Below are positions 3,736 through 37,552 of a DNA stretch of 58,478 nt, in pieces (position 1 is the stretch's first letter; each line of letters starts with the position of its first letter). A program made the position numbers and the translations under genes. The stretch is from Candidatus Yanofskybacteria bacterium RIFCSPLOWO2_02_FULL_45_18 (lineage in GTDB: Bacteria > Patescibacteriota > Minisyncoccia > 2-02-FULL-40-12 > GWA2-44-9), in assembly GCA_001795795.1 (NCBI GenBank), contig MGKV01000008.1:1-58478 (forward strand). The letters run 5' to 3'. Under the pieces are notes generated by a model, which did no database searches, was not told the origin of the DNA, and was given only the letters and a program-made list of their open reading frames with translations.

Positions 3736-3795
3736 TATAGCCGCCCATCAACGGACGGTTTTGATTTATGCCCCCTTCTTTGTTATTCTTTAATC

Positions 3796-5661
3796 ATGGT
3801 TGCGCAACCGCTTGAACATTTGCGTCACTCTTTGGCACACCTCCTAGGCGCGGCGGTTTTGGATTTGTATCCCGGTTCAAAATTGGCCATCGGACCGGCA
3901 ATTGAGGACGGATTTTACTACGATATAGATTTCAGTTCTGCTGAACTGCGCGGACAGACGCGGATTGGTACGCAGACCTACGCGGACCAAAAAATGGTTA
4001 TTTCTGACAGTGATTTGCCGAAGATTGAAAAGAAAATGCGGGAGATTTTAAAGTCATGGGAGGTGTTTGAGAAAATTGATGTCACTCCGGACGAAGCAAG
4101 AAAAATCTACAACGGAAATCAGTATAAGACGGAACTAATTAATGAACTGGAAAAAAACAAACAACCCATAACTCTTTACTACTCCGGCCCCGAAACAAGT
4201 ATCCCCGCCAAGAAGTCCTTGCTACAAGCTACAAGCTATAAGCCACAAGCTGGTTTCTTAGATCTCTGCCGTGGCGGCCATGTTGAAGATGTCAAAGAAA
4301 TAGACCCCGAAGGATTTAAATTGACCCATATCGCCGGAGCGTATTGGCGCGGAAGCGAAAAAAATCCGATGCTTACCCGTATTTACGGACTGGCTTTTTA
4401 TGCCAAAGAAGAGTTGGATGCGCATTTGCGGATGCTGGAGGAAGCCAAAAAGCGCGACCACCGTAAATTGGGCAAAGAGCTGGGGCTTTTTACCATCGCT
4501 GAAGAAGTCGGGCCGGGATTGCCGCTTTTTTATCCCAAAGGAGCGATACTGCGTCGCTTGGTGGAAAATTTTATCACCGAGATACAAGAAAAGCGCGGCT
4601 ATATGCCGATCTGGATTCCTCATGTGACCAAGGGCGAGCTCTACAAGATTTCGGGCCATCTTGAAAAATACGACGCGCTTTACCCGCCGATGCGTCTTCC
4701 CGACGAGGCCGACTACTACATCAAGCCGATGAATTGCCCGCATTTTATGATGTTGTATAAGTCGCTCCCCCATTCTTACCGCGAGTTACCCATTCGTTAT
4801 GTTTGCACCACGACTAATTACCGTTACGAGAAATCGGGAGAGCTCTCCGGATTAACACGGGTGCGTTCGCTGACGCAGGACGACTGCCATGTGTTTGCCA
4901 CATCCGAACAAATAGAAAAAGAGGTCGGATTAATGCTGGACATGATAGAGGAAACTTATAAGGTTTTTGGTTTTAACGATTTTCATGTCCGAGTTTCGAT
5001 TCGGGATATTAAAACGCCTGAAAAATATATCGGCGACTCTGATGTGTGGGAAAAATCCGAGAAGATATTGGAAGGGCTTATAAAAAACAGGAACTGGAAA
5101 TATGATATTGGCGAAGGCGAGGCGGCATTCTACGGTCCGAAGCTTGATTTCATATTCAAAGATGTCATCGGTCGGCCGTGGCAGCTTTCCACGGTTCAGC
5201 TAGATATGAATTTGCCCCAAAGATTCGGGCTTGAATATGTTGATACGGATGGAACTAAAAAACAGCCGGTAGTTATCCATCGGGCGATTCTCGGCTCAAC
5301 GGAACGGTTCCTGGGCATATTGATTGAGCACTACGCCGGAGCGTTTCCGGTATGGCTGGCGCCGGTGCAGGTTGCAGTCCTTTCCGTATCCGACAAACAA
5401 AGCGAGGCGGCCCGGGCGGTGGAACAGCGTCTCAAAAATGCAAGTATTCGCGCGGAGTTAAATAATGAAAACGAAACTTTGGGCAAAAAAATACGCGGAG
5501 CCGAACTTCAAAAGATCCCATATCTTGCGGTAATCGGAGAAAAAGAGGTAGTCAGCGACATGGTAGCAGTTCGCCAGCGGGGTAAAGGAGATTTGGGACA
5601 AATGAGCGTGGAGAGTTTCATTGCGGAGGTAACTCAAGAAGAAAAGGCAAAGTCGCTGTAA
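3796..5661 (+). CDS. thrS: Threonine--tRNA ligase lacking the N-terminal TGS domain
   Basis: Starts directly at the HSLAHLL editing-domain motif. Class II core motifs are present (FYPKG, MNCPHF, TRVRSLTQDD) plus an anticodon-binding tail. Confidence 0.93.
   Translation: MVAQPLEHLRHSLAHLLGAAVLDLYPGSKLAIGPAIEDGFYYDIDFSSAELRGQTRIGTQTYADQKMVISDSDLPKIEKKMREILKSWEVFEKIDVTPDEARKIYNGNQYKTELINELEKNKQPITLYYSGPETSIPAKKSLLQATSYKPQAGFLDLCRGGHVEDVKEIDPEGFKLTHIAGAYWRGSEKNPMLTRIYGLAFYAKEELDAHLRMLEEAKKRDHRKLGKELGLFTIAEEVGPGLPLFYPKGAILRRLVENFITEIQEKRGYMPIWIPHVTKGELYKISGHLEKYDALYPPMRLPDEADYYIKPMNCPHFMMLYKSLPHSYRELPIRYVCTTTNYRYEKSGELSGLTRVRSLTQDDCHVFATSEQIEKEVGLMLDMIEETYKVFGFNDFHVRVSIRDIKTPEKYIGDSDVWEKSEKILEGLIKNRNWKYDIGEGEAAFYGPKLDFIFKDVIGRPWQLSTVQLDMNLPQRFGLEYVDTDGTKKQPVVIHRAILGSTERFLGILIEHYAGAFPVWLAPVQVAVLSVSDKQSEAARAVEQRLKNASIRAELNNENETLGKKIRGAELQKIPYLAVIGEKEVVSDMVAVRQRGKGDLGQMSVESFIAEVTQEEKAKSL
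3949..3988. repeat. Short tandem array of CGCGGA-type units (10-12 nt period) inside thrS
   Basis: CGCGGACAGA CGCGGATTGGTA CGCAGACCTA CGCGGACC. Encodes the odd segment AELRGQTRIGTQTYADQK. Confidence 0.6.
4222..4249. repeat. 7-nt-period tandem array inside thrS
   Basis: CTACAAG CTACAAG CTATAAG CCACAAG. Encodes LLQATSYKPQA just before the conserved DLCRGGH. Confidence 0.75.
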
Positions 5662-5704
5662 ATTTGCGGAGCATACTCGGATTGCGTTCCACAACAAAAG
5701 ACCG

Positions 5705-6349
5705 TCACTTGGTGGCGGTTCTTTTAAATTTTGAAAAAAAATACAACAGAACGATAATTGTGGCCATGGCCGTAATGATTATGATCCGCAGTTCGGTTGA
5801 AATTTGAAAGATATATTGCCAGAACCTAACCATGCCGACCGTTTTGACGATATTGCCAACCAGCAGGACGAAAAATCCTTTTCTCCAACCGCTGATACGG
5901 CAAAATAAGGTGCCGACAATGCGCGAGCCGGGTTCTGGAAAGATTCCAACCAGAAAAATTGCCGGATAACCTCCCCACTTGATAGCTTTGAAGATGCGGA
6001 GATTGGCGTATTGCTCGGGGTTATATTTTTTGGAAAAATAACCGACAATCTCGTCGTAGTAGCCGTTCCTCTTCAGTTTATTCCAAAATTTCTTTAAAAA
6101 ATTTATGTCTTCCCTGATTGATTTCTCTGCGATTTTCTTTTTTGCAATTTTTTTGACAAAACCGTCAATCCAGCCTATTAACCAGTAAACATAAACCAAC
6201 TCACCGGTGGCAAGAATGCAGGCAATTATGGAGGTATGCAAAAATCCGAGACCATGCATCTGCAAATACGGAATAATGCCCAGGTCTATATTCAACAGCC
6301 ACATTAAAGGTAATCCCAAACATGGCCAGAGAGCGAACCATTTTTTCAC
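5705..6349 (-). CDS. Hypothetical multi-pass membrane protein
   Basis: 214-aa ORF with several hydrophobic helices and a basic central loop. No family recognised. Confidence 0.5.
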   Translation of the reverse strand: MKKWFALWPCLGLPLMWLLNIDLGIIPYLQMHGLGFLHTSIIACILATGELVYVYWLIGWIDGFVKKIAKKKIAEKSIREDINFLKKFWNKLKRNGYYDEIVGYFSKKYNPEQYANLRIFKAIKWGGYPAIFLVGIFPEPGSRIVGTLFCRISGWRKGFFVLLVGNIVKTVGMVRFWQYIFQISTELRIIIITAMATIIVLLYFFSKFKRTATK

Positions 6350-6410
6350 AACCGCTCCTTGTTAAGGAACTTTATATTCCCGTCCGAATGTAGTAATACT
6401 AGAGGAAAGT

Positions 6411-7433
6411 ATGGCAGACCGCAAGAAGATAAAAATAATAGTGATATTGGGCCCGACGGCTTCGGGCAAGTCGGGTTTAGCCCTACGACTCGCCAAACTT
6501 ACTCAGGGTAAACCATTCCGAGAGAAATACGGAATAAAAGGGGCTGAAATAATTTCGGCTGACAGTCGGCAGGTTTACCGCGGGATGGATATCGGAACGG
6601 GCAAGGTTGACCAAGACCGAATTCAAAAATCAAAAATCAAAAGTCAAAATTTAGGTCGAGGCCTCTTTTATTCAAGAGGGATTCGGCATTGGCTGATTGA
6701 CGTTGCAAATCCTAAAAAACAATTCACCGCGGCGGATTTTAAGCGGATGGGAGAAAAGGCGATTGAAGAGATTCTTGGCAAAGGCAAGATACCAATTATC
6801 GTCGGCGGGACGGGGTTTTATATTGACGCGCTTTTGAATCGTGTGAATCTTCCTGACGTGCCGCCGGACAGGACATTAAGGGCGAAACTGGAGAAACTAT
6901 CCGCGAAACAGCTTTTTGAGAGGCTTAAGAAACTTGATCCCGTAAGGGCAAAAAATATTGACGCCAAAAACAAAAGACGCCTTGTTAGGGCGATAGAGGT
7001 AGCAAGCGGAAGGTATCGAGTAGCGAGTAGTAAGTATCAAGAAAGTGACTATGATATTTTATGGATTGGGGTTAAATTATCAAAAGAAGAATTGGCGAAA
7101 AGGATAAAAAAACGCCTCAATGAAAGGATAAAACAAGGGATGGTGGCAGAGACGCGAAAACTGCGGGATGGCGGTTTAACCCGGAGACGGCTTTATGATC
7201 TGGGGCTGGAATACCGATGGCTGTCGTTATATCTAAAGCGTGAGACGCAAAGCGCAAAGCGCAAAATCAGAGTCGCCCCCTTCATAAAATCGGAGGAATA
7301 CAAAAATCTTTTGCGCGATATAATCCGCTATTCCAAAAGACAGATGACATGGTTCAAGAGAAATAAAAATGTTGTCTGGGTATCCGGAAAAGAAGCCGCG
7401 CGCGCTCTGGCCAGAAGATGGATGACCGACTAG
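6411..7433 (+). CDS. miaA: tRNA dimethylallyltransferase
   Basis: P-loop GPTASGKS, then ISADSRQVYRGMDIGTGK. Longer than usual because of three repeat-encoded inserts. Confidence 0.9.
   Translation: MADRKKIKIIVILGPTASGKSGLALRLAKLTQGKPFREKYGIKGAEIISADSRQVYRGMDIGTGKVDQDRIQKSKIKSQNLGRGLFYSRGIRHWLIDVANPKKQFTAADFKRMGEKAIEEILGKGKIPIIVGGTGFYIDALLNRVNLPDVPPDRTLRAKLEKLSAKQLFERLKKLDPVRAKNIDAKNKRRLVRAIEVASGRYRVASSKYQESDYDILWIGVKLSKEELAKRIKKRLNERIKQGMVAETRKLRDGGLTRRRLYDLGLEYRWLSLYLKRETQSAKRKIRVAPFIKSEEYKNLLRDIIRYSKRQMTWFKRNKNVVWVSGKEAARALARRWMTD
6623..6650. repeat. 7-nt-period tandem array inside miaA
   Basis: TCAAAAA TCAAAAA TCAAAAG TCAAAAT. Encodes IQKSKIKSQN. Confidence 0.8.
6992..7047. repeat. 7-nt-period tandem array inside miaA (8 units)
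   Basis: GATAGAG GTAGCAA GCGGAAG GTATCGA GTAGCGA GTAGTAA GTATCAA GAAAGTG. Encodes EVASGRYRVASSKYQES. Confidence 0.8.
7234..7275. repeat. 7-nt-period tandem array inside miaA (GCGCAAA family)
   Basis: TAAAGCG TGAGACG CAAAGCG CAAAGCG CAAAATC AGAGTCG. Encodes RETQSAKRKIRV. Confidence 0.8.
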
Positions 7434-7669
7434 TTTTGCAATTTTTTGATATACTCCTCGGTTTCTTTCTCTCCGGTATTTCCAGTGGCATTTCCCGTTT
7501 TCCCCTCCAATTCTATTTGCTTTTCCGCTGATTCCGCAACTTCCCCCTCTTCCGGTTTAAAATAGGTTTCAGGGTTTGGCATAAGCAGAGGCAGGTTATT
7601 TCCAGACGGCTGAATGGTTTCAACATCAGTGGACGTTAATTTGGCCCAAATTTTTTTGAATATGCTCAT
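7430..7669 (-). CDS. Hypothetical small acidic protein
   Basis: 79-aa ORF whose ATG abuts the gatB stop codon (TAAATG), suggesting translational coupling. Confidence 0.45.
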   Translation of the reverse strand: MSIFKKIWAKLTSTDVETIQPSGNNLPLLMPNPETYFKPEEGEVAESAEKQIELEGKTGNATGNTGEKETEEYIKKLQN

Positions 7670-9130
7670 TTAGTCGTTTAATATTTTTTCAATTAGTTCG
7701 GCTACGATTTGGGGATTGGCTTTACCCTTTGTCGCGGCCATGATTCGACCAATAAGGAATTTCAAGGCCCCTTTTTTGCCTTTTTTGTAATCTTCAGCTA
7801 CTTTGCTATTTTCCATAATAACATTTTCCGCGGCTAATTTAAGAGTATCCAGATCGGACACCTGCGCCAGATCTTTTTGACGGATGATATAATCGGGGCT
7901 ATTGCCACTGGCGAACATTTCTTTGAGCAATGTTTGGGCGCCGGAAGAAGAGACTTCTCCTCGGGATACGCGGACAACAAAGTCGGCAAACATTTCGGGC
8001 GTTATCTTGATGTCGTCAATTTCTGCGGAAACATCAGATAGTAATTTTTGCAATTCGGTAATTAAATAATTTGAAGCAAGTTTAAATAATTTTTCCTTAT
8101 GTTCTATGGAGATAAGCTCACTGGCAATCTTTTCAAAATAATTTCCCAGCTTTTTATTGGTGATAAAGAGCGCGATGTCGCTATCCGGCAGTCCGTATTC
8201 TTTTGTAAATCTTTCTCTTCTTTGTTGAGGCAACTCCGGCAGTTTGGATTTGATTTCTTCAATATCTGGTTCGTTGAATTTCAGGGGCGGCAGATCCGGT
8301 TCGGGGAAATATCTGTAATCGCTGGAGCCCTCTTTGGTCCTCTGACTTATGGTTATCAGTTTTTTATCGTCCCACCCACGCGTTTCCTGAACTATCTTCT
8401 CTCCCGCTTCCAGCAATTCAATCTGCCTTTTTGTTTCATAATCCGCGGCTGCGGCGGCCGCTTTGATTGAATTGATGTTTTTGACCTCAACCTTGGTTCC
8501 CAACTTGTCAGTTTTGGAAACTGAAATATTAACCTCAACTCTCATCTGCCCCTTTTCCATATCGGCATCGGAAGCGCCAAGATAACGCAGTATAAGCTGT
8601 AATTCTTCGACAAAGGACTTAATTTCAGAACCGGTCTCAATATCGGGATTAGTAACCAGTTCCATTAAGGGAACGCCCGCGCGATTATAGTCCACCAGAG
8701 AATATTTGCCGTCGGGTGGATGCTGCAGACGACCCGCATCCTCTTCTAGGTGAATTCTCTCGACTCTTATTTTTTTCTTACTTGTCGCCGGTCGCTGGTC
8801 GCTGGTTGCTATTTCCAGCCACCCATTCTCGCACAACGGTTTTTGAAATTGAGAAATTTGGTATCCCTTAGGCAAATCCGGATAGAAATAATTTTTTCTT
8901 TCAAAAAAAGTATCTTGAGAAATTTTGCAGTTCAAAGCTAGACCAATAAGGAGCATTTTGTTTATGGCTTCACGGTTGATTACTGGCAAAGCGCCAGGAT
9001 GACCCATGCAGACGGGGCAAATATTAATGTTGGGATGCTTTTCATCCGGGTCGTTGAGCGAATCGCAAAACATCTTGGTCTTTGTTTTAAGCTCAGCATG
9101 TATTTCCAGTCCAATCGTAGTTTTATACAT
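7670..9130 (-). CDS. gatB: Asp/Glu-tRNA amidotransferase subunit B
   Basis: TIGLEIHAELKTKTKMFC, RIHLEEDAGRL, and a C-terminal YqeY-like tail. Confidence 0.93.
   Translation of the reverse strand: MYKTTIGLEIHAELKTKTKMFCDSLNDPDEKHPNINICPVCMGHPGALPVINREAINKMLLIGLALNCKISQDTFFERKNYFYPDLPKGYQISQFQKPLCENGWLEIATSDQRPATSKKKIRVERIHLEEDAGRLQHPPDGKYSLVDYNRAGVPLMELVTNPDIETGSEIKSFVEELQLILRYLGASDADMEKGQMRVEVNISVSKTDKLGTKVEVKNINSIKAAAAAADYETKRQIELLEAGEKIVQETRGWDDKKLITISQRTKEGSSDYRYFPEPDLPPLKFNEPDIEEIKSKLPELPQQRRERFTKEYGLPDSDIALFITNKKLGNYFEKIASELISIEHKEKLFKLASNYLITELQKLLSDVSAEIDDIKITPEMFADFVVRVSRGEVSSSGAQTLLKEMFASGNSPDYIIRQKDLAQVSDLDTLKLAAENVIMENSKVAEDYKKGKKGALKFLIGRIMAATKGKANPQIVAELIEKILND
8781..8815. repeat. 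7-nt-period tandem array inside gatB (CGACCAG/CGACAAG family)
   Basis: CTTGTCG CCGGTCG CTGGTCG CTGGTTG CTATTTC on the plus strand. Encodes ATSDQRPATS. Confidence 0.8.
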
Positions 9131-10397
9131 TTTCAGTGAATTTTAGGAGATAATTTTTAACTTTTTCCGACTGATCGTATAGGTTTTTGCGGTACTCATT
9201 ATAAACCGCAATTCTTAAGCCAAGATGGGAGCGCCCGTACTCTTTCATGGCGGCGAAATGGTTGGGATAGATGTCGCTGACCCGCCTGATCTTCCTTTCC
9301 TTGTTGTAAACATAGATATCTTCCGGTTCAAATCTGTTTTTGGAAAATGGCGGGATTATCAATAAAAATTTAGCGGGAATTTTGGTCAAATCGGCTATTT
9401 TGTTTTCCAGTTTTTCCAACTCAAACAAATTGTTTACGCGGGGAGAACTGATCAAGCGGTCAAGCGCCCCCGAATCTACTCCGATTGTTTGGATTGTTTT
9501 GTTTACAAAACCGGTATCCGGATTGGCGGATTGATACTTAAACTCTAATGTTAATTTGGGGAAAATTCCAGCCATGAACCTGCTATAATAAAATTTAACC
9601 AGCTTATTCTTGGACAATTCAAATCTTCCAAAAAGACCGGCATCCGTAAGATTAAACAATCCTTTTTCGCTTAGCCCGTCCCCCATTAGTTTATGGGTCA
9701 TTTTTTCAACCAGCCGCTGCAGGATTGCCGCTTTTTTCCGTAGGTAAACATTTTTTGACATTTTTATGTAAAACTCCTGTATCGCTTTGGCCTGATCAAC
9801 CGCCACCTCATTTATGACCAGTTTCCCGTCTATGAAATAGGTGTGTTTGGCCAAAAACTCAACTCCGGGACGCTCGCCCAAAGTGTAAAAAGCGTCCCGC
9901 TCAAGATAATCCAGTTTTTCCGTGCCTAAATTTTTATCAAAAACAGCAAGGTAAAGAGAATTTTTTCTGGAAAAAAGATCGTGGAGGAGATTATAATCGC
10001 ACCCGACGGCAACAAATTTATCTTTTAGGCCTTCTATTATCTTAAGGCCACGCATGTCGTGGTCAATCTTTCCCAGCCGTTCTGTAACATGGGAAAACGG
10101 ACCGTGGCCGATGTCGTGATAAAGGGCGTATACCTGAAGACAAAAGGCCTCGGTTTCTTTTATAAAACCGTGGTGAAGCCAGTCAGCAGTCAATTTTTTA
10201 GTTCGGCCATAAGCGCCTAAAGAATGTTGTTTCCGCGTGTGGGTTGCTGACGGGAAAATGGTTGAGACCAAGCCCAATTGATACTTAAAACCTAAAGACT
10301 GAAACCTTTCTTCGTCTAATAAGAGCAATACTTTTGTTACATCCATCAGTCCCAAAAGAGGGTCAAAAATAAATTTTGGTTTATCAACCGGAGCCAT
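9123..10397 (-). CDS. HD-domain phosphohydrolase (dGTPase/SAMHD1-like dNTP triphosphohydrolase family)
   Basis: HSLGAY, YHDIGHGPFSH and LDYLERDAFY motifs. Overlaps the gatB start by 8 nt. Confidence 0.75.
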   Translation of the reverse strand: MAPVDKPKFIFDPLLGLMDVTKVLLLLDEERFQSLGFKYQLGLVSTIFPSATHTRKQHSLGAYGRTKKLTADWLHHGFIKETEAFCLQVYALYHDIGHGPFSHVTERLGKIDHDMRGLKIIEGLKDKFVAVGCDYNLLHDLFSRKNSLYLAVFDKNLGTEKLDYLERDAFYTLGERPGVEFLAKHTYFIDGKLVINEVAVDQAKAIQEFYIKMSKNVYLRKKAAILQRLVEKMTHKLMGDGLSEKGLFNLTDAGLFGRFELSKNKLVKFYYSRFMAGIFPKLTLEFKYQSANPDTGFVNKTIQTIGVDSGALDRLISSPRVNNLFELEKLENKIADLTKIPAKFLLIIPPFSKNRFEPEDIYVYNKERKIRRVSDIYPNHFAAMKEYGRSHLGLRIAVYNEYRKNLYDQSEKVKNYLLKFTENV

Positions 10398-10420
10398 TTC
10401 TTCATACTACTATAAATAAG

Positions 10421-10449
10421 AGCAAAATAAAGGCCTCCCGAAGGGAGGC
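10421..10449 (-). terminator. Hairpin plus T-rich tract between thyX-like and HD genes
   Basis: GCCTCCC-GAA-GGGAGGC stem-loop followed, on the minus strand, by CTTTATTTTG. Confidence 0.45.
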
Positions 10450-10474
10450 GAGAAAAACTTTGTATTTGCACCGT

Positions 10475-12840: not shown

Positions 12841-12873
12841 TTGTCACCTCGATGTTAAGGTTCTTGCCCACCA

Positions 12874-12910
12874 ATTTTAATGCAATAGTAATTTTAGACA
12901 ATGGGGATAA
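12874..12910 (-). promoter_or_regulatory. Predicted promoter of the tmk-like/thyX/HD/gatB operon with abutting DnaA-box-like 9-mer
   Basis: Minus strand reads TTATCCCCA (12910-12902), -35 TTGTCT (12901-12896), 16-nt spacer, -10 TAAAAT (12879-12874). Confidence 0.4.
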
Positions 12911-12967
12911 CAAAAAGGCGGTCTTCAGACCCTAAAACATTTTGCCGGACAAAATGTTCGGGCGATG

Positions 12968-13393
12968 TTACTTCGTAACGTCTAGTCCCATGCTTCGAGC
13001 CGTTCCTTTGACTATTTGCACAGCTCCCTCAAGGTCATTGGCGTTCAGGTCGCTCATTTTCTTTTCGGCGATTTCGCGGACTTGCGCTTCGGTGACCTTG
13101 CCGACCTTGTTCTTGTTGGGCGTGCCGGAGCCCTTTTCAACGCCGGCGGCTACGCGCAAAAGATATGCCGCGGGAGGGGTTTTAAGCTTAAATTCAAAAG
13201 TCCGGTCTTCGTAAATAGTTATTTCGCATGGGGTAACTTCGCCTTGTTTGTCTTTGGTTGCATCGTTAAACTGGCTTACGAATTGCTGTAAGTTAATGCC
13301 GTGCGGCCCTAAAGCCGTGCCGACCGGCGGAGCCGGCGTAGCCCGACCGCCCTCAACCTGAAGTTTAACTATTGTTTTGATTTTTTTGGCCAC
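12968..13393 (-). CDS. rplK: 50S ribosomal protein L11
   Basis: 141 aa. [31 protein letters not shown] start. Confidence 0.95.
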
Positions 13394-16414: not shown

Positions 16415-18491
16415 AAATATCCAAATTTTGGACTGACTTGGCGTGAGATTGAATGAACTTTTTGCGGGGTAGAACCTCCGAGCCCATGAGGGTGTCAAAA
16501 ACTTTGTCGGCTGCTTCGGCATCGGTAACGGTTACCTGCAACAAGACGCGGTTTTGCGGGTCAAGGGTAGTTTCCCAAAGTTGGGACGGATTCATTTCCC
16601 CTAAACCCTTGTAGCGTTGGATATTAACACCCGCTATTTTTTCCGGTTCGGCGGTTTCGGTCTCTTTTTGTTCCGTCAACGGCATGACTTCCCATTCGGA
16701 ATCGGCTTTTAGCTTTGCCTGTCCAGTCGGGGAGCTTTTAGCTTTGAGCTTTTCACTGCCAAATTCCGCCACAATTTTGTCCTTTTCTTTGTCGTTATAA
16801 GCATATACCGCTTTGGCTCCTTTTTGTATTTTATAAAGCGGGGGCTGGGCGATATAAAGATGGCCACTCTCTATGATTTGCGGAAAATAGCGGTAAAAAA
16901 GAGTCAGCAGAAGGGTGCGGATGTGAGCTCCATCAACATCGGCATCAGCCATAAGAATAATTTTGTGGTAGCGGAGCTTGGAAATATCAAACTCCTCGGC
17001 AATAGCGGTGCCCATGGCAATAATAAGGGCGCGAATTTCTTGGTGGGCCAGCATTTTATCAATGCGAGCCTTTTCAACATTCAGTATCTTGCCCTTGAGC
17101 GGAAGGATAGCTTGTGTTCGGCGATTCCGCCCCTGCTTGGAACTTCCTCCGGCGCTGTCGCCTTCTACTATGAACAACTCTGATTCCGAAGCATCGCGGC
17201 TGGAACAGTCGGCAAGCTTGCCGGGCAGGGTCAGGCCTTCCATGGCACCTTTGCGCAGTACCGTCTCGCGGGCGGCTTTGGCGGCGAGGCGGGCCTTGGA
17301 AGCCAAGATAACTTTTTCTAATATCTGGCGGGCATCAGCCGGATTGCGTTCAAGCCAGTCGGAAAACTCGGTGTTAATGACAGTTTCCACTGCGGTGCGT
17401 GCGTCGGGCGTACCCAGCTTGGCTTTGGTCTGGCCTTCAAACTGCGGCTCGCGCAATTTGAGGGAAATAATGACAGTTAGGCCCTCGCGAACGTCGTCGC
17501 CCGAAAGATTATCGTCTTTTTCTTTGATATACCCATTCTTGCGGGCATAATCGTTAAGAGTGCGGGTAATGGCTGAACGGAAGCCGGTCACATGCATACC
17601 GCCCTCAATCGTATGGATGTTGTTGGCAAAACTGAATTCTCTGTTTTGTAGGTCATCCACATATTGCATGGCAGTTTCCACAAAAATATCCTGCTGTTCC
17701 TTGGCGGTATAAAAGATGGTGTTATGTTTTGCTTCAAGGCCGCGGTTCAGGTATTCAATATATGACACAATTCCTCCTTCAAAATAAAAAGCATGGGCCG
17801 GATACTGGGGTTCTTTGCGGTCTTTAACAACAAGCGGAGTTCTCTTATCTTCAATGATAATTTTGACACCTTTGGTCAGATAAGCCTGTTGGCGCAGGTG
17901 ATTGAGTATCTTTTCCCAATCAAAAGAAATTTCTTTGAAAATCTCGGAGTCGGGCTCAAAAGTCACGATTGTGCCGTGAGATGACTGGCCCCTAGGTACT
18001 TTGCCAACTTTTCTAATTGATTTTTTGGGTTTGCCGCGTTCATACTCCTGTTCGTAAATTTCTCCTTCGCGACGAACTTCGGCCTTTAAATATATGGACA
18101 GCGCGTTGACTACTGATACGCCGACGCCGTGCAAACCGCCGGCGACTTTATAGGCCTCGCCGCCGAACTTTCCGCCGGCATGAAGGGTGGTCATAACCGT
18201 TTCCAAAGCCGAGACACCGGTTTGCTTGTGCTTTTCCACCGGAATGCCGCGGCCGTCGTCTTTGACGCTGACGCGGTTGTCGGGCAAAAGTGTGACAGTG
18301 ATATTTTTGGCATAACCGGCCATTGCCTCGTCCAGTGAATTGTCAAAAACCTCCCATATCAAATGATGGAGGCCGTCAACGCCGGTTGAACCGATATACA
18401 TTCCCGGGCGTTTGCGCACCGGTTCAAGACCTTCAAGGACATAGATATCTTTGGCGGTATAAGATTGTTGTTTTTGTTTTTCTTCAGCCAT
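16413..18491 (-). CDS. gyrB: DNA gyrase subunit B
   Basis: 692 aa with GHKL ATPase, TOPRIM (EGDSAGGS) and C-terminal motifs (RYKGLGEM). Confidence 0.97.
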   Translation of the reverse strand: MAEEKQKQQSYTAKDIYVLEGLEPVRKRPGMYIGSTGVDGLHHLIWEVFDNSLDEAMAGYAKNITVTLLPDNRVSVKDDGRGIPVEKHKQTGVSALETVMTTLHAGGKFGGEAYKVAGGLHGVGVSVVNALSIYLKAEVRREGEIYEQEYERGKPKKSIRKVGKVPRGQSSHGTIVTFEPDSEIFKEISFDWEKILNHLRQQAYLTKGVKIIIEDKRTPLVVKDRKEPQYPAHAFYFEGGIVSYIEYLNRGLEAKHNTIFYTAKEQQDIFVETAMQYVDDLQNREFSFANNIHTIEGGMHVTGFRSAITRTLNDYARKNGYIKEKDDNLSGDDVREGLTVIISLKLREPQFEGQTKAKLGTPDARTAVETVINTEFSDWLERNPADARQILEKVILASKARLAAKAARETVLRKGAMEGLTLPGKLADCSSRDASESELFIVEGDSAGGSSKQGRNRRTQAILPLKGKILNVEKARIDKMLAHQEIRALIIAMGTAIAEEFDISKLRYHKIILMADADVDGAHIRTLLLTLFYRYFPQIIESGHLYIAQPPLYKIQKGAKAVYAYNDKEKDKIVAEFGSEKLKAKSSPTGQAKLKADSEWEVMPLTEQKETETAEPEKIAGVNIQRYKGLGEMNPSQLWETTLDPQNRVLLQVTVTDAEAADKVFDTLMGSEVLPRKKFIQSHAKSVQNLDI
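16704..16752. repeat. 7-nt-period tandem array inside gyrB (AGCTTTT/AGCTTTG family)
   Basis: GGCTTTT AGCTTTG CCTGTCC AGTCGGG GAGCTTT TAGCTTT GAGCTTT. Encodes KLKAKSSPTGQAKLKA. The 13-mer GCTTTTAGCTTTG recurs at 24691 and 32702. Confidence 0.75.
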
Positions 18492-32871: not shown

Positions 32872-32924
32872 CTACTTTTTGATGCCGACCCAGATTGGCA
32901 TTTGCGGAGCGAGTTCAAGTTCTT
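32872..32924. repeat. 53-bp direct repeat, copy 2 (ileS stop codon plus last ~17 codons)
   Basis: Identical to 31470..31522. Confidence 0.95.
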
Positions 32925-35900
32925 TTTCCACATCATATTTCTTTTTGTCGTGAGGGCCGTTGATGAAATCGGAGAGCAGTGTGTCCCCCTCTATCATATC
33001 AGACCACTTCAAGATAGCGGCGGAGAGCTCTTTGCTGTCGCTGTGCCACTGGCAGTAAATTTTTTGGTCTAGCTTATATCCAGCTTCTTTACGCATATCC
33101 TGTATCTGGCGCATCAATTCGCGCGCATAACCCTCGGCGGCCAGTTCTGCCGTAACTTCCACATCTAATTCTACTAATGGTCTGGTCGCTTGTCGCTTGT
33201 CGCTGGTCGCATAGCTTATCCCCCTCACATTCAGTTCTTCCTTGATAAGTTCTTCCAAATCATTTTCCAGTTTATCGCTGGCTATCGCGGCGGATTTAAG
33301 TGGTTGGCGGACTTTTATCTGCTTTTCTTTTCTGATTGCCAGACCGGCCGTAATTATTTCCCTGATGTGGGACATTTTTTCTTCTAGTTTGATATTGCGG
33401 GTTTTCTTTTGCAGCTTCGGCCAGTCATGGAGATGGATGCTTTCGGTTGAGGGTTTCGCGCCAATATGCAGGCGCGTATGAATATCTTCGGCCGTGAAAG
33501 GAATAAACGGTGCGAGGATTTTAGCTAGTTCCAGAAGCAATACCCGCAAAAGCGGCAGGGCCTCTTTGCGTTTGCGCGAACGGCGTAGCCACCACTGGGA
33601 GAAGTCATCAACGACAAATTTCTCTATGGCCCGCGAAGCGGTTGTGGGATCATATGCGTCCAGTTTTTCAGTTACTTCCGACAGTAACTCTTGGAATCGC
33701 GAGATAATCCACTTATCCAGCAAATTTTTCACTGCTCCCAAGTTCTCGGAGGTAATTTCCGTCTTGTCGCTTGTCGCTTGTCGCTTGTCGCCAGATTGAT
33801 ACAATTCATAAAACCTGACGCAATTTTCCAGCGTCATGGTAAAACCCTTGAGTTGTTCCCGCGCGGCTTGAATGGAGATGGATTTGAAATCGCCCGGTTC
33901 ATTCAGCGTGTAAAGATACCAGCGGGTGGCATCTGCGCCGACTTGGTCCATGATTTCATCAGGCGTGATGACATTGCCGATGGACTTTGACATTTTTTTG
34001 CCTTTTTCATCCAAAGCCAATCCGAGAGCCATCACATTTTTATAAGGCGCGTCTTTTCCAAGGAGCGTTGAGACGGCAAGAAGCGTATAGAACCAGCCAC
34101 GGGTCTGGTCAATGCCTTCCACGATGAAATCCGCCGGAAATTGTTTCTTGAATATGTCTTTGTTCTCAAACGGCCAATGCCATTGGGCGTAAGGCATAGC
34201 GCCGGAATCAAACCAAACGTCGGCTATGTCGGGTATTCTTTTCATTTCCGCCCGGCATTTGCCGCATCTTAAGACGATGCTGTCAATATAGGGACGATGA
34301 AGGTCAAGTTCGCCCAGCTCATTGCGGGGAATCTGAATCCAGCTGAGTTTTTTCAGTTCCGCAAAAGACGGATACCAATCCTCTCCCCTCTCTCTGCGAG
34401 CCAGCACCTCGTTATCGGTTCTGCCTTCAGCTATCTGGGCAAGAAGCCAAAGCGGGTCGCCGTGGCTGACGATGAGGATCTTTTTATTGTGGTAAGTTGA
34501 TTCAATCTCCTGCATAAAATCCATTATTCTTTGGCGAACGTCGTTCCAGCTCTCCCCTCCGTCCTCCTTGAATTCAAAATTCTTTTTCACATCTTTGAAC
34601 GGACAGGCGCTGTGCTTTTTGCCCTCGCAGGCAAAACCATGGCGAATTTCAGTCAATCGGTTATCAATCTTCGCTTCCCGATGGAGCATTTTACCCGCGA
34701 TTTCGGCAGTTTCCCGCGTGCGCAAAAACGGAGAGCAGTAAATGGCGTCAACGTTTTCACCGCGGGCAAAGTTGCCGACAGCGTTTTCAACAATCATTTT
34801 CCCCTCGGTTGTCAGGTGATACCCGTCGCTATTTTTTTCGGAATTAATGATAATGTCATTTTTCTCGTCGCGCTCGCTAATGCCATGGCGCATGAGATAA
34901 TATGTATTTTTGCGCCCGACCGCCTGTTTGGCTATTTCTTTAACCGCTCCGACTGTTCTGGCATGGCCGCATTTTACGCACTGCCAAATCGGAAGTGGCG
35001 TGCCCCAATAGCGTTCTCGCGATATTGCCCAGTCCTTAAGTTCTTTCAGCCATTGTCCAAAGCGCCCCTCCTTTATGTGGGCGGGCACCCAGTTTATTTT
35101 TCCGTTATTTGTAATCAACTCATCTTTGACGGCGGTGGTTTTAATGAACCATGAGTTTTTGGCGTAATAAAGCAAAGCCGTTCCGCAGCGCCAGCAAAAA
35201 GGATACTCATGCTCGTATGGCTCTACCTTGAAAAGATTGCCGTTCGCCCGAAGATGATCCAGTATTTTTTCTTCTGTTTCCGCGTTTTTAACGTAAAGAC
35301 CATCAAAACCGCCACCCACTCCGGTGAACCGCCCGCCCTCGTCTACTGTGTGGATCTTCGGCAATCCGACCGCCGTTCCCAGCTTATAGTCGTCATCGCC
35401 GTACATCACCGCCGTATGGACGATACCCGTTCCTTCGGAAGTTGAAACGAAGTCGGCGGCATAGACCTTGTGTGACTGCGGCGATTTAAACGCTTCAACG
35501 TCAAACAGCGACTCATATTCTAGACCGATCAGATCAGAACCGGAAATAGTATTATGTATTATGTATTCCGTATTAAGGACTTTGGAAACCAGCTCCTCCG
35601 CCAAAATATATCTCTCGTCTTTACCCTTGATACTTACTACCTGATACTTAATACTCTCTCCGACTGCGAGAGCCACGTTGCCCGGCAATGTCCACGGCGT
35701 TGTTGTCCAAGCCAATAAATAAACGTCCCCTTCCGAAACTTTGCGCTTTGCGCTTTGAACTTTAAACTTAATTATGGCCGATATATCGGTTATGGTGCGA
35801 TATCCTTGCGCAACTTCGTGAGATGAAAGAGCCGTGCCACAGCGAGTGCAAAAAGGCACGACCTTGTGGGCGTGGTAGAAAAGTTTTTTATCCCATATTT

Positions 35901-36378
35901 TTTTGAATATCCGCCAAAGCGACTCAATGTATGGGTTCTCGTAAGTCACGTAAGGATGGCCCATATCTATCCAGAAGCCCATTCGTTCGGTCATTTCTTC
36001 CCACTCTTTTTTGTATTTCCAAACGCTTTCTTTGGCTTTTTTGTTGAATTCTGCGATTCCGTACTCTTCAATGTCTTTCTTGCTTTTGAATCCCAGCTGT
36101 TTTTCCACTTCAAGCTCAACCGGCAAGCCGTGGGTATCCCAGCCGGCTTTTCTTAATACAAAAAATCCCCGCATGGTTTTGTAGCGTCCATAGAGGTCTT
36201 TGTATATTCGGGTCAAAAAATGGCCGATATGGGGCAGGCCGTTCGCGGTGGGCGGCCCCTCAAAGAAAACAAATCTTTTCTTGCCGCGCCTTTGCTCCAG
36301 ACTCTTTTGGAAAATCTTTCCTTTCTCCCAAAAATCCAGTATTTCCTTCTCTTTTTTTTGAAAATCAAGGGTTGCCAT
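32872..36378 (-). CDS. ileS: Isoleucine--tRNA ligase (type 2) with an inserted histidine-phosphatase domain
   Basis: 1168 aa. PPTANGLPHIGH (HIGH), KMSKS, CP1 editing domain (WTTTPWTLPGN). Extra block at about residues 489-688 (nt 34315-34914). Confidence 0.95.
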   Translation of the reverse strand: MATLDFQKKEKEILDFWEKGKIFQKSLEQRRGKKRFVFFEGPPTANGLPHIGHFLTRIYKDLYGRYKTMRGFFVLRKAGWDTHGLPVELEVEKQLGFKSKKDIEEYGIAEFNKKAKESVWKYKKEWEEMTERMGFWIDMGHPYVTYENPYIESLWRIFKKIWDKKLFYHAHKVVPFCTRCGTALSSHEVAQGYRTITDISAIIKFKVQSAKRKVSEGDVYLLAWTTTPWTLPGNVALAVGESIKYQVVSIKGKDERYILAEELVSKVLNTEYIIHNTISGSDLIGLEYESLFDVEAFKSPQSHKVYAADFVSTSEGTGIVHTAVMYGDDDYKLGTAVGLPKIHTVDEGGRFTGVGGGFDGLYVKNAETEEKILDHLRANGNLFKVEPYEHEYPFCWRCGTALLYYAKNSWFIKTTAVKDELITNNGKINWVPAHIKEGRFGQWLKELKDWAISRERYWGTPLPIWQCVKCGHARTVGAVKEIAKQAVGRKNTYYLMRHGISERDEKNDIIINSEKNSDGYHLTTEGKMIVENAVGNFARGENVDAIYCSPFLRTRETAEIAGKMLHREAKIDNRLTEIRHGFACEGKKHSACPFKDVKKNFEFKEDGGESWNDVRQRIMDFMQEIESTYHNKKILIVSHGDPLWLLAQIAEGRTDNEVLARRERGEDWYPSFAELKKLSWIQIPRNELGELDLHRPYIDSIVLRCGKCRAEMKRIPDIADVWFDSGAMPYAQWHWPFENKDIFKKQFPADFIVEGIDQTRGWFYTLLAVSTLLGKDAPYKNVMALGLALDEKGKKMSKSIGNVITPDEIMDQVGADATRWYLYTLNEPGDFKSISIQAAREQLKGFTMTLENCVRFYELYQSGDKRQATSDKTEITSENLGAVKNLLDKWIISRFQELLSEVTEKLDAYDPTTASRAIEKFVVDDFSQWWLRRSRKRKEALPLLRVLLLELAKILAPFIPFTAEDIHTRLHIGAKPSTESIHLHDWPKLQKKTRNIKLEEKMSHIREIITAGLAIRKEKQIKVRQPLKSAAIASDKLENDLEELIKEELNVRGISYATSDKRQATRPLVELDVEVTAELAAEGYARELMRQIQDMRKEAGYKLDQKIYCQWHSDSKELSAAILKWSDMIEGDTLLSDFINGPHDKKKYDVEKELELAPQMPIWVGIKK
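33183..33210. repeat. 7-nt-period tandem array inside ileS (CGACAAG family)
   Basis: TGGTCGC TTGTCGC TTGTCGC TGGTCGC. Encodes ATSDKRQATRP. Confidence 0.8.
33763..33790. repeat. 7-nt-period tandem array inside ileS (4 perfect CTTGTCG units)
   Basis: CTTGTCG x4. Encodes GDKRQATSDKT. Confidence 0.85.
34315..34914 (-). other. Histidine phosphatase (PGAM/His_Phos_1-like) domain inserted in ileS
   Basis: YLMRHGISE (RHG), LTTEGKMIVENAV...VDAIYCSPFLRTRETAEI, LTEIRHG, GESWNDVRQRI, ILIVSHGDP. Confidence 0.75.
35737..35771. repeat. 7-nt-period tandem array inside ileS (GCGCAAA family, opposite orientation)
   Basis: AACTTTG CGCTTTG CGCTTTG AACTTTA AACTTAA. Encodes KFKVQSAKRKVS. Confidence 0.8.
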
Positions 36379-36385: not shown

Positions 36386-36420
36386 GCCTAATGCCTAAAG
36401 CCTAGCGCCTAGGGCTTGAC
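36386..36420. repeat. 7-nt-period tandem array directly upstream of the ileS start (GCCTANN family)
   Basis: GCCTAAT GCCTAAA GCCTAGC GCCTAGG GCTTGAC. Confidence 0.8.
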
Positions 36421-37489: not shown

Positions 37490-37552
37490 GCGACTGACAA
37501 CTGACAACCAACAACCATGTTGTGCGTTGTGAGTCGTTAGTTGTAAGTTTCC
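37490..37552. repeat. 7-nt-period array forming an imperfect palindrome between mpg and htrA
   Basis: GCGACTG ACAACTG ACAACCA ACAACCA | TGTTGTG CGTTGTG AGTCGTT AGTTGTA AGTTTCC. Confidence 0.75.

What the first reader, a model, noticed from the sequence alone, without database searches (positions are those of the whole stretch)
8781..8815. The same CGACAAG/CGACCAG heptamer family is inserted in gatB and twice in ileS
gatB carries CTTGTCG CCGGTCG CTGGTCG CTGGTTG, encoding ATSDQRPATS. ileS carries TGGTCGC TTGTCGC TTGTCGC TGGTCGC (33183-33210, ATSDKRQATRP) and four perfect CTTGTCG units (33763-33790, GDKRQATSDKT). Near-identical nucleotide arrays in unrelated essential genes produce near-identical peptides. 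That argues for a DNA-level process (insertion or expansion of a repeat element) rather than selection on protein sequence.
Basis: seen in the sequence. Interest (0 to 1): 0.65.

Follow-up and report, generated by a model that had tools for sequence, protein, structure and literature searches.

The report
Seven-base repeats inside essential genes
Short runs of a repeated 7-letter DNA word have expanded inside essential genes of a tiny groundwater bacterium (Candidatus Yanofskybacteria), adding floppy 7-10-residue surface loops to the proteins; this looks like a DNA-copying stutter that selection tolerates, a known repeat type in an unusual place, not a designed protein feature.

Summary
gatB (7670-9130, -) and ileS (32872-36378, -) each carry four-unit arrays of GCGACAA-type heptamers on the coding strand, encoding ATSDQRPATS, ATSDKRQATRP and GDKRQATSDKT.

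These arrays are part of a wider pattern. Period-7 tandem arrays are the only enriched repeat class in the window (8 arrays against 0.07 expected). They also sit in thrS, miaA, gyrB and at two further ileS sites. The same excess appears in 223 kb from Patescibacteria (CPR) relatives.

GatB and IleRS orthologues either lack the inserts or carry other heptamer units (GAGACAA, CCTACAA and others) in the same loops. AlphaFold models place all three inserts in the lowest-confidence loops.

A near-identical strain differs from the window by one indel in 8.65 kb. That indel is the loss of exactly one unit from the perfect ileS array, and it frameshifts ileS.

Units are A-rich on the coding strand (59 against 5) and encode hydrophilic peptides.

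Best reading: these are heptanucleotide simple-sequence repeats made by replication slippage, filtered by reading frame, stop codons and loop tolerance. Units within a genome are more alike than chance, and a rare variant unit is shared by gatB and ileS. This leaves room for exchange between arrays. It is a known repeat class in an unusual coding, essential-gene setting.

The parts
7670..9130 (-). gatB (Asp/Glu-tRNA amidotransferase subunit B, 486 aa), host gene of the first array
   Evidence: Translation. Orthologues carry PF02934 and PF02637 and are named GatB.
8781..8808 (-). Four-unit imperfect heptamer array. Coding strand GCAACCA GCGACCA GCGACCG GCGACAA. Encodes ATSDQRPATS (residues 108-117), the tip of a beta-hairpin.
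   Evidence: The AlphaFold model's only segment with pLDDT below 50 is residues 112-114. The site is a hotspot for inserts in orthologues.
32872..36378 (-). ileS (isoleucyl-tRNA synthetase with an internal His_Phos_1 domain, 1168 aa), host of four period-7 arrays
   Evidence: Translation. Pfam families precomputed for the product.
33183..33210 (-). ileS array 1. Coding strand GCGACCA GCGACAA GCGACAA GCGACCA. Encodes ATSDKRQATRP (residues 1057-1067), a loop between two strands.
   Evidence: pLDDT is below 50 at residues 1061-1063. Orthologues have a shorter 'D-x-x-Q-K-E' at this site.
33763..33791 (-). ileS array 2. Four perfect GCGACAA units plus G. Encodes GDKRQATSDKT (residues 863-873), the linker before the anticodon-binding domain. 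Varies in unit number between strains.
   Evidence: pLDDT is below 50 at residues 865-872. Locus L001 has 3 units, which is the only indel in 8.65 kb and splits ileS into 880 + 286 aa. The linker is hypervariable in orthologues.
35739..35757 (-). ileS array of CGCAAAG-type units, about 2.7 perfect copies (QSAKRK), in the loop before 'AWTTTPW'. A Woesearchaeota IleRS (L101) carries a GCGACAA array in the same loop.
35549..35567 (-). ileS period-7 stretch, AATACAT x2.7 (EYIIHN). It lies in a modelled beta-strand and the peptide is shared by some orthologues, so it is probably native sequence or a proto-array and not an insert.
4221..4250 (+). thrS array, GCTACAA x4 (LLQATSYKPQ). Same NNNACAA unit type.
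   Evidence: Identical in all cluster members of at least 90% identity.
6623..6649 (+). miaA array, TCAAAAA x4 (IQKSKIKSQ)
   Evidence: miaA also carries several arrays in relatives L003 and L004.
7246..7265 (+). miaA array, CGCAAAG x3
16733..16752 (-). gyrB array, AAAGCTN x3 on the coding strand (EKLKAKS)
   Evidence: The gyrB of relative L003 carries a CGCAAAG array.
36386..36404 (.). Intergenic period-7 array, GCCTAAT/GCCTAAA, just upstream of the ileS start codon
   Evidence: Also present in L001.
37493..37508 (.). Intergenic period-7 array, ACTGACA x2.3, upstream of the HtrA-like protease gene

Best explanation
The arrays are heptanucleotide simple-sequence repeats (microsatellite-like tandem duplications of a 7-nt word). 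They are generated by strand slippage during DNA synthesis. This mutational mode dominates indel formation in this Candidatus Yanofskybacteria genome and in many other Patescibacteria and DPANN genomes.

The genome is about 90% coding, so most arrays arise inside genes. Three filters decide which survive:
(i) The net length change must keep the reading frame. That typically means about three extra units, or +21 nt, which gives arrays of roughly four units.
(ii) The unit must read without stops and as mostly hydrophilic residues in all three frames. This favours A-rich, T-poor units on the coding strand, such as GCGACAA = A-T-S-D-K-R-Q.
(iii) The site must be a surface loop or linker that tolerates 7-10 extra disordered residues.

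The same permissive loops of GatB, IleRS, ArgRS and similar enzymes are therefore hit again and again in different lineages, with different units or the same one.

The arrays remain slippage-prone. Gain or loss of a single unit frameshifts the essential host gene.

Shown here: tandem heptamer structure, the period-7 excess, presence/absence and unit turnover among orthologues, one unit-number variant, loop location, and strand and composition bias. Inferred: slippage as the enzymatic cause, the 'one native unit plus three added' frame logic, and neutrality of the peptides.
For: - Period-7-specific excess in the window: 8 arrays against 0.07 expected, with no comparable excess at any other period from 4 to 21.
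- The same excess in 223 kb of CPR loci: 38 arrays at period 7 and 19 at period 14, against 0-4 at every other period, excluding the arrays that were used to find the loci.
- In GatB orthologues the same loop is either empty or carries arrays of GCGACAA, GAGACAA or CCTACAA.
- The IleRS linker and loops behave the same way.
- A strain 99.9% identical over 8.65 kb differs by one indel, exactly one GCGACAA unit of the perfect array. No indel was seen in about 186 kb of other strain comparisons.
- AlphaFold puts all three inserts in the lowest-confidence coil segments.
- Among 69 arrays confidently inside coding sequence, 59 units have A>T on the coding strand and 5 have T>A (p = 9e-13).
- Sense translations average 1.6 hydrophobic residues per 7, against 3.6 for antisense. 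In antisense orientation 21 of 47 units would introduce stops.
- Coding-region arrays in CPR/DPANN loci cluster at 27-35 nt and none exceeds 35 nt. Arrays of the same unit elsewhere, many of them intergenic or in high-GC genomes, reach 111 nt.
- (GCGACAA)3 occurs in at least 119 genome stretches across many phyla, against about 0.3 expected by my own estimate. Sense arrays start in every phase of the reading frame.
[quoted passage not shown] 2007, as summarised in PMC4679880 and PMC4692102).
Against: - Units within a genome are more alike than units between genomes: mean cyclic Hamming distance 2.56 against 3.18 under permutation, p < 0.0002.
- The variant unit GCGACCA makes up only 2 of 90 single-mismatch variants beside GCGACAA arrays in other genomes, yet it occurs in both the gatB array and ileS array 1 here.
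- Three ArgRS proteins only 51-56% identical carry perfect GCGACAA arrays in the same loop. In L122 the first unit looks native (CGAAAAG) but the added units are CGACAAG, so they are not plain copies of the local sequence.
- GCGACAA is 3-4 times commoner than composition-matched heptamers with equally hydrophilic translations: 19 against 5, 5 and 7 stretches in viral contigs.
- These four points suggest sequence preference or exchange between arrays beyond simple local slippage.
- Only one unit-number variant was found. No clean pair of empty and filled sites between close relatives could be obtained.
- Why the period is 7 remains unexplained. The pattern also occurs in archaea, whose replicative polymerases differ from bacterial ones.
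Confidence: 0.65

Rival explanations
1. Copy-and-paste between arrays. Once a heptamer array exists in a genome, nascent strands that end in a short matching word elsewhere switch template to that array (or undergo ectopic gene conversion) and copy a few units back. A genome-specific unit family would then spread into new loops. This is the closest form of the reader's 'insertion of a repeat element'. It could act together with local slippage.
For: - Units within a genome are more similar than units between genomes. Examples are L026, with GCGACAA, GCGGCAA x2, GCGGCAG and GCGACAT, and the window's GCGACAA, GCGACCA, GCGACCG and GCAACCA.
- The generally rare GCGACCA variant is shared by the gatB and ileS arrays.
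- ArgRS arrays in three phylum-level lineages carry CGACAAG units next to a native-looking CGAAAAG.
- GCGACAA is in 3-4-fold excess over matched controls.
- Several genomes were hit repeatedly in the genome scan.
Against: - The window holds at least 8 different units among about 13 arrays, so no single family dominates.
- Some within-genome similar pairs are adjacent pieces of a single array (L119, L004).
- The similarity could equally reflect genome-specific base composition, codon preference or context-dependent mutation.
- No donor-recipient event has been observed.
- The same unit occurs across unrelated phyla and in both domains, so independent origin must happen anyway.
Confidence: 0.2
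2. The inserts are selected for a function. Either the peptides serve as flexible, charged loops that alter interactions of aminoacyl-tRNA synthetases and GatCAB, or the arrays act as an RNA/DNA motif, for example tandem heptamers bound by cold-shock-type OB-fold proteins. On this view the heptamer arrays are maintained and not merely tolerated.
For: - Recurrence at identical loops in distant lineages and in both domains.
- Perfect nucleotide repeats persist beside flanks that are saturated at synonymous sites.
- Arrays are stable across 10 assemblies of the species.
- Literature notes that CspB binds heptamer direct repeats (PMC4679880).
Against: - About half of the orthologues do without any insert, and the rest carry unrelated peptides in the same loop.
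- The inserts are predicted to be disordered.
- Host genes are functionally unrelated: aminoacyl-tRNA synthetases, gyrB, miaA, ligA, secA, ftsY, polA, recG.
- A functional peptide would not need to be encoded by a 7-nt DNA repeat read in three frames.
Confidence: 0.08
3. Assembly or polishing artefact, or a chance similarity of low-complexity coding sequence.
For: Short tandem repeats can be mis-assembled. The single unit-number variant (L001) comes from one MEGAHIT assembly.
Against: - The arrays (28-29 nt) are far shorter than sequencing reads and assembly k-mers.
- Identical arrays occur on 15-22 contigs from independent projects in NCBI, JGI and ENA.
- The chance expectation is 0.07-0.43 against 8 observed.
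- Homologous arrays exist in related genomes.
Confidence: 0.02

Closest known systems
Heptanucleotide long simple-sequence repeats of prokaryotes (Mrazek, Guo & Shah 2007, as summarised in PMC4679880 and PMC4692102)
   Same: Head-to-tail repeats of a 7-nt unit, far longer than chance allows. Period 7 is the dominant class among 5-11-nt repeats. Distribution is scattered across phyla. Polymerase slippage is the proposed cause. Unit number varies between strains.
   Different: The survey noted that coding regions hold mainly units whose length is a multiple of three. The genomes it found richest in 5-11-nt repeats were Burkholderia, Xanthomonas, cyanobacteria and actinobacteria. Here the arrays sit in frame inside essential housekeeping genes of a small, gene-dense CPR genome. 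They are strongly sense-biased and confined to about 3-5 units.
GGGNATC / GGGGA(C/T)T heptamer repeats of Xanthomonas and Nostoc (PMC4692102)
   Same: [quoted passage not shown]
   Different: Those repeats are G-rich and form G-quadruplexes. [quoted passage not shown] The arrays here are A-rich, cannot form G-quadruplexes, and lie on the coding strand. The four-unit preference here is better explained by the reading frame (my inference).
TAACTGA repeats of Beggiatoaceae and cyanobacteria, and cyanobacterial STRR heptamers (PMC4679880)
   Same: One specific heptamer recurs as short direct-repeat sets in phylogenetically scattered genomes, with no evident transfer mechanism.
   Different: TAACTGA contains stop codons in forward orientation, is overwhelmingly intergenic (upstream of start codons), and is proposed to regulate translation. 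The arrays here are translated.
Rickettsia palindromic elements, selfish DNA inserted in frame in protein-coding genes (Ogata et al. 2000; cited from my own knowledge, not checked here)
   Same: Short repeated DNA tolerated in frame within housekeeping genes, encoding surface-exposed peptide segments. A DNA-level origin produces similar peptides in unrelated proteins.
   Different: RPEs are palindromic dispersed elements of roughly 100-150 bp. The heptamer arrays show no hairpin potential and are 28-nt tandem repeats. A hairpin-forming insert that is more RPE-like does occupy the same GatB loop in other Parcubacteria (L173).
Tandem repeats of Borg elements that create intrinsically disordered regions (PMC9879509)
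   Same: Rapidly evolving, recently formed nucleotide tandem repeats inside ORFs that add disordered, hydrophilic peptide segments.
   Different: As I recall the paper (not re-checked here), Borg repeat units inside ORFs have lengths divisible by three and can reach many copies. Here the unit is 7 nt, so only steps of three units keep the frame, and single-unit changes are frameshifts.
Contingency loci (phase-variable SSRs, e.g. Haemophilus; PMC2651432)
   Same: A tandem repeat inside a coding region whose unit gain or loss shifts the reading frame.
   Different: Contingency loci sit in surface or virulence genes and switch reversibly as an adaptive strategy. Here the hosts are essential single-copy enzymes and the arrays are stable in 10 of 11 assemblies. 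A frameshift is a cost, not a switch.

Membership tests
Heptanucleotide simple-sequence repeat (long SSR) | Head-to-tail copies of one 7-nt unit | tested here: met
   TRF gives period 7 with 3.7-4.1 copies and 90-100% matches. The units can be read directly from the sequence.
Heptanucleotide simple-sequence repeat (long SSR) | Longer and more frequent than expected from the genome's composition | tested here: met
   8 arrays against 0.07 expected at period 7. 8 two-unit matches against 0.43 expected.
Heptanucleotide simple-sequence repeat (long SSR) | Period 7 is the dominant tandem period genome-wide, not a one-off | tested here: met
   The window, loci L001-L004, and 223 kb of CPR loci with 38 arrays at period 7 against 0-4 at other periods.
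Heptanucleotide simple-sequence repeat (long SSR) | Unit-number variation between strains, the signature of slippage | tested here: met
   One case: 3 against 4 GCGACAA units in ileS array 2. It is the sole indel in 8.65 kb. The other arrays are invariant in 10 assemblies, so the evidence is thin.
Phase-variable contingency locus | Repeat sits in a dispensable surface, virulence or restriction gene, or its promoter, where on/off switching is tolerated | tested here: not met
   The hosts are gatB, ileS, thrS, miaA and gyrB.
Phase-variable contingency locus | Frequent reversible length variants within populations | not testable with these tools
   This needs raw reads. At assembly level only 1 variant appeared in 11 assemblies.
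In-frame palindromic mobile element (RPE / MITE-like) | Inverted-repeat (hairpin) structure | tested here: not met
   DNA folds of the three arrays with flanks give z-scores of -1.2, -0.45 and +0.2 against shuffles.
In-frame palindromic mobile element (RPE / MITE-like) | Dispersed copies that share a full-length consensus beyond the simple repeat | tested here: not met
   The flanks of the three arrays share nothing beyond the heptamer units.
Intergenic regulatory heptamer repeats (TAACTGA / STRR type) | Predominantly intergenic, close to start codons | tested here: not met
   69 of 88 arrays in CPR/DPANN loci lie confidently inside coding sequence. 9 of about 13 in the window lie inside genes.
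Borg-type coding tandem repeats | Unit length divisible by three inside ORFs | tested here: not met
   The unit is 7 nt.

The most novel reading that the evidence does not exclude
A sequence-directed process shared by ultra-small prokaryotes (Patescibacteria, DPANN archaea, Omnitrophota) installs and propagates roughly four-unit NNNACAA arrays, above all GCGACAA, into the same surface loops of aminoacyl-tRNA synthetases, GatB/GatE and other core enzymes. It would work by template switching or gene conversion between arrays, or by a still unidentified enzyme or element, and not by independent local slippage. If so, arrays in unrelated genes of one genome would be evolutionarily linked. The signs here are the shared rare GCGACCA variant in gatB and ileS, and identical units in homologous loops across phyla and domains.
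Probability: 0.12. Interest if true: 0.75.

Novelty: new variant of a known kind. Interest (0 to 1): 0.5.

Why it matters
If the reading is right, a single mutational quirk, 7-nt stutter, is a main source of the length variation and small disordered inserts that are common in CPR and DPANN housekeeping proteins. That has three practical consequences.

- Such inserts should not be read as lineage-specific functional motifs, or as shared ancestry when they recur at one site.
- They create homoplasy in alignments used for deep phylogeny.
- They plant frameshift hotspots inside essential single-copy genes of organisms with minimal genomes and reduced repair. The window's species shows one such allele, which splits IleRS exactly at a domain boundary.

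The pattern also bears on an old unanswered question: why heptamers are the favoured long SSR of prokaryotes. The same unit and the same array size occur in bacteria and archaea, whose replicative polymerases differ. That argues against an explanation tied to one polymerase.

The statistical signs that arrays within a genome are not independent are a small but testable lead.

Tried and rejected
1. Metagenome scan for unit-number alleles of ileS array 2, using the pattern flank-N{7,37}-flank. It found 0 hits. The species appears to be absent from that collection, so the result says nothing either way.

2. 'Recent gain' pairs among GatB orthologues: P0016 against P0052 (94.8% identical, +9 aa) and P0076 against P0056 (92.5%, +7 aa). 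I rejected both. P0016 is a mosaic: its N-terminal ~125 residues including the insert match the P0036 type, and the rest is nearly identical to P0052. By eye P0076 also differs from P0056 immediately beside the insert, which suggests the same, but I did not test it. No DNA is on record for either protein. So no clean pair of empty and filled sites was obtained.

3. Protein lag-k autocorrelation across the orthologue sets. It was confounded by conserved motifs and told me nothing.

4. Strain-level clusters (ThrRS, MiaA, GatB, GyrB). They show no array variation.

5. Hairpin or palindromic element: rejected.

6. Phase variation: rejected because the host genes are essential.

7. A simple 'one native unit plus three copies' origin. 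The array length mode of 29-34 nt fits it. The exact insert sizes relative to orthologues (+5, +8 or +9 aa) do not fit cleanly, and at 65-72% identity the boundaries cannot be resolved.

8. A resemblance of the + strand of the gatB array (GCTGGTCG) to the E. coli Chi site. I considered it from memory only and did not pursue it.

9. Literature searches for heptamer repeats in Patescibacteria/CPR found nothing.
Full report
OBSERVATION.

On the coding (-) strand, gatB (7670-9130) reads GCAACCA GCGACCA GCGACCG GCGACAA at + strand 8781-8808. This encodes ATSDQRPATS.

ileS (32872-36378) reads GCGACCA GCGACAA GCGACAA GCGACCA at 33183-33210, encoding ATSDKRQATRP. It also reads four perfect GCGACAA units plus G at 33763-33791, encoding GDKRQATSDKT.

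Two-unit GCGACAA-like matches number 8 in the window against 0.43 expected. All lie on the coding strand of thrS, gatB or ileS.

THE WIDER PATTERN IN THE WINDOW. The three arrays are not a special pair of genes. Among tandem periods 4-21, only period 7 is enriched: 8 arrays with at least 10 self-matching bases against 0.07 expected from Markov simulations, and 6 against 0 at 12 or more bases.

About 13 period-7 arrays occur:
- GCTACAA x4 in thrS.
- TCAAAAA x4 and CGCAAAG x3 in miaA.
- AAAGCTN x3 in gyrB.
- CGCAAAG and AATACAT stretches in ileS, in addition to the two reported arrays.
- Three arrays in or overlapping intergenic DNA.

Gene identities come from Pfam. The window is about 90% coding.

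ORGANISM AND REPRODUCIBILITY. The closest GatB and IleRS relatives are 63-67% identical, and those that carry a source name are Patescibacteria (Candidatus Yanofskybacteria, Taylorbacteria, Paceibacterota). ThrRS cluster members are named Candidatus Yanofskybacteria.

The exact GatB and IleRS proteins occur on 22 and 15 contigs from NCBI, JGI and ENA. Ten independent assemblies match window 1-19130 at 99.70-99.96% identity with no indel at all. The arrays are therefore not assembly artefacts.

ORTHOLOGUE COMPARISON.

GatB. In 120 orthologues the insert site lies between 'G-x-L-E-I' and 'K-K-I-R-I-T-R-I-H-L-E-E-D-A-G'. About half the proteins have nothing there. Many of the others carry 7-residue-periodic peptides: ATSDKQQGIS, ETRDKRQETG, QPTTYNLQP, KSEARNPKSEI.

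The DNA of three relatives shows that these are heptamer arrays with different units at the same place:
- L002: GCGACAA GCGACAA GCAACAA GGGATAA.
- L003: GAGACAA GAGATAA GAGACAA GAGACGG.
- L004: CCTACAA x4.7.

An orthologue with an empty site (L162) reads GAG AAT AAG there, which looks like roughly one degenerate unit. The L003 GatB has three heptamer-type inserts relative to L162.

IleRS. The linker after N-C-V-R-F-Y-E-L-Y (the window's array 2) is hypervariable in all 120 orthologues. Many carry heptamer-derived peptides such as SELQATSYKLQ, SDLQPTTYDPK, SEIRNPK and IGNWKLEIGNS. At the array 1 site the orthologues have a short D-x-x-Q-K-E.

STRUCTURE. AlphaFold models built with orthologue alignments are confident overall (mean pLDDT 85.8 and 85.5).

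In GatB the only segment below pLDDT 50 is residues 112-114. This is the centre of the insert, at the tip of a beta-hairpin.

In IleRS the only segments below 50 are 735-739, 865-872 (array 2) and 1061-1063 (array 1), all coil. The inserts are therefore surface loops or linkers.

SLIPPAGE SIGNATURE. In the 90%-identity IleRS cluster, one ENA contig encodes ileS as two ORFs of 880 and 286 residues, broken inside array 2.

That contig (L001) aligns to the window over 8650 nt with 2 mismatches and a single gap. The gap is exactly one CGACAAG unit, leaving 3 units instead of 4. No other indel was seen in any strain comparison, about 195 kb in total. Arrays make up roughly 0.5% of the window, so this location is unlikely by chance.

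The break falls in the linker before the anticodon-binding domain. Whether this allele is viable is unknown.

BEYOND THE WINDOW. By my own estimate from the database size, chance would give about 0.3.

The hits spread over many phyla: Streptomyces, Xanthomonas, Burkholderia, Planctomycetota and others. They include 17 Patescibacteria, 8 DPANN archaea and 13 Omnitrophota, and several genomes were hit repeatedly. The scan was truncated, so taxon enrichment cannot be normalised.

In low-GC loci with long spanning ORFs the arrays are almost all in sense orientation and start in every phase.

I identified the host proteins by eye from the translations. They are housekeeping enzymes: ValRS, LeuRS, IleRS, three ArgRS, GatB, archaeal GatE/B, LigA, SecA, PolA, RecG, FtsY and PheT.

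Some loops recur:
- Three ArgRS proteins only 51-56% identical (Azambacteria, Saccharibacteria, Harrisonbacteria) carry perfect arrays in the same loop after Y-V-Q-Y-A-H-A-R-x-x-x-I-L. Their flanks are saturated at synonymous sites, and one of the three is in a different phase.
- A Woesearchaeota IleRS has a GCGACAA array in the loop where the window's IleRS has its CGCAAAG array.

THE SELECTION FILTER. The CPR and DPANN loci held 88 period-7 arrays, of which 69 lie confidently inside coding sequence.

Coding-strand units are 41% A and 13% T. Units with A>T outnumber units with T>A by 59 to 5 (p = 9e-13). Leaving out the ascertained GCGACAA unit, the count is 38 to 4.

Sense translations average 1.6 hydrophobic residues per 7 against 3.6 for antisense. 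In antisense orientation 21 of 47 units would contain a stop. A simple filter (no stop, at most one hydrophobic residue) reproduces the T depletion and part of the A enrichment.

Array lengths in coding sequence cluster at 27-35 nt, with a second group near the detection limit, and none exceeds 35 nt. Arrays of the same unit in other genomes, often intergenic or in high-GC DNA, reach 111 nt. This fits a frame constraint of about +21 nt together with selection against long inserts. That fit is inference, and the insert sizes relative to distant orthologues do not fit it cleanly.

SIGNS THAT ARRAYS ARE NOT FULLY INDEPENDENT.
- Units within a genome are more alike than units between genomes: mean cyclic Hamming distance 2.56 against 3.18 under permutation (p < 0.0002), and 17% against 5% of pairs within one mismatch. 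Some of these pairs are adjacent pieces of a single array.
- The variant GCGACCA accounts for only 2 of 90 single-mismatch units beside GCGACAA arrays elsewhere, yet it is present in both the gatB array and ileS array 1.
- In viral contigs (GCGACAA)3 occurs in 19 stretches. Three composition-matched heptamers with equally hydrophilic translations occur in 5, 5 and 7 stretches, and CGCAAAG in 2.
- In the Harrisonbacteria ArgRS a native-looking CGAAAAG is followed by CGACAAG units.

They leave open exchange between arrays or an intrinsic sequence preference.

WHAT IT IS NOT.
- The arrays have no hairpin potential, so they are not palindromic elements.
- A different, hairpin-forming 30-40-nt insert (peptide NPPSHKASEGS) occupies the same GatB loop in other Parcubacteria.
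- They are not contingency loci, because the host genes are essential.
- They are not Borg-type repeats, because the unit length is not a multiple of three.

COMPARISON WITH WHAT IS KNOWN. Heptanucleotide repeats were reported as the most abundant long SSR class in most prokaryotic genomes surveyed, with polymerase slippage over a roughly 7-nt contact proposed as the cause. Repeats in coding regions were noted to be mainly multiples of three (Mrazek et al. 2007, as summarised in PMC4679880; see also PMC4692102, which states that no detailed study of heptameric repeats existed in 2015).

Searches for heptamer or tandem repeats in Patescibacteria/CPR returned nothing.

The window therefore shows a known repeat class in an unusual setting. 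The arrays are in frame, sense-biased and short, and they sit in the permissive loops of essential enzymes. The pattern recurs across CPR and DPANN lineages.

VERDICT. A DNA-level origin is supported. The 'single inserted element' and 'no role for protein-level selection' readings are not supported.

The best explanation is slippage-generated heptanucleotide SSRs filtered by frame, stop codons, hydrophilicity and loop tolerance (confidence about 0.65). Exchange between arrays is a live add-on (about 0.2).

Interest is moderate at 0.5. The mechanism class is ordinary, but the scale of the coding-region pattern in CPR/DPANN genomes, the frameshift hazard in essential genes and the non-independence signals deserve a proper census.

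Noticed in passing
window 32872-36378 (-), IleRS residues ~490-665: IleRS carries a complete histidine-phosphatase (PF00300 His_Phos_1) domain inserted in its middle. All 120 closest orthologues (55-63% identical, Parcubacteria) have it too. By eye, a Liptonbacteria ValRS (L014) has a similar insert (RHGETDWN...THGGPIR).
   Followed up: partly
window 31470-31522 and 32872-32924: An exact 53-nt direct repeat. The last 53 nt of ileS, including its stop codon, are duplicated 1402 nt away, downstream of the Laminin_G_3 gene (31571-32686). This looks as if that gene was inserted at the 3' end of ileS with duplication of the target.
   Followed up: partly
window 24612-24798 / 32623-32809 and 31231-31300 / 32589-32658: Repeats of 187 nt (89% identical) and 70 nt (91% identical) cover the 5' ends and upstream regions of three neighbouring genes (23599-24666, 30807-31400, 31571-32686). 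They include the 14-nt tandem TATGGCG(T/C)A(G/T)AGCT x2 at each start. Probably paralogous N-termini or promoters.
   Followed up: no
window 22647-22687 and 23310-23350: Two copies (95% identical) of a 41-nt sequence that is itself an inverted repeat (TGTGTTATTC...GAATAACACA). They flank the 176-aa ORF 22780-23310.
   Followed up: no
window 53479-53523: A 14-nt tandem repeat, TAGCCATTAGGACT x3.2, the highest-scoring TRF hit in the window. It spans the start codon of ORF 52631-53485 (-) and the intergenic DNA upstream of it, before ORF 53558-54847.
   Followed up: no
L173 2089-3663 (GatB of a Patescibacteria relative) and many GatB orthologues: A second, non-heptamer class of in-frame insert occupies the same GatB loop. 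The peptide family is NPPSHKASEGS / DPSSREATKGS / NPSTNAQGS. In L173 it is encoded by a hairpin-forming palindrome, GGGAACCCTCCTTCGCATAAAGCTTCGGAGGGCTCTC (the 69-nt region containing it folds at -21 kcal/mol, RNA parameters). This is reminiscent of Rickettsia palindromic elements.
   Followed up: partly
L001 3001-6500 (ENA ERZ27254759, same species): ileS is split into 880-aa and 286-aa ORFs by loss of one heptamer unit, exactly at the linker before the anticodon-binding domain. It is unknown whether this is a viable split synthetase, a dead-end allele or an error.
   Followed up: partly
L162 2475-6116 and 15947-20437 (Yanofskybacteria relative): gyrB and dnaE of this relative each carry an intein with a LAGLIDADG endonuclease domain (PF14890, PF14528). 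The window's gyrB (692 aa) and dnaE (1068 aa) do not.
   Followed up: no
P0016 and P0076 (GatB proteins derived from sequencing runs): P0016 is a mosaic of two co-occurring Yanofskybacteria GatB types, with the switch point just after the insert loop. It is either a chimeric assembly or a natural recombinant. P0076 shows a similar local divergence beside the insert but was judged by eye only.
   Followed up: partly
window 10475-12133 (-): The ThyX (PF02511 Thy1) gene product is 552 aa. It looks about twice the usual ThyX length (from memory), which suggests a duplicated or fused form. The same length is seen in all 10 strain loci, and relative L173 has a 556-aa version.
   Followed up: no
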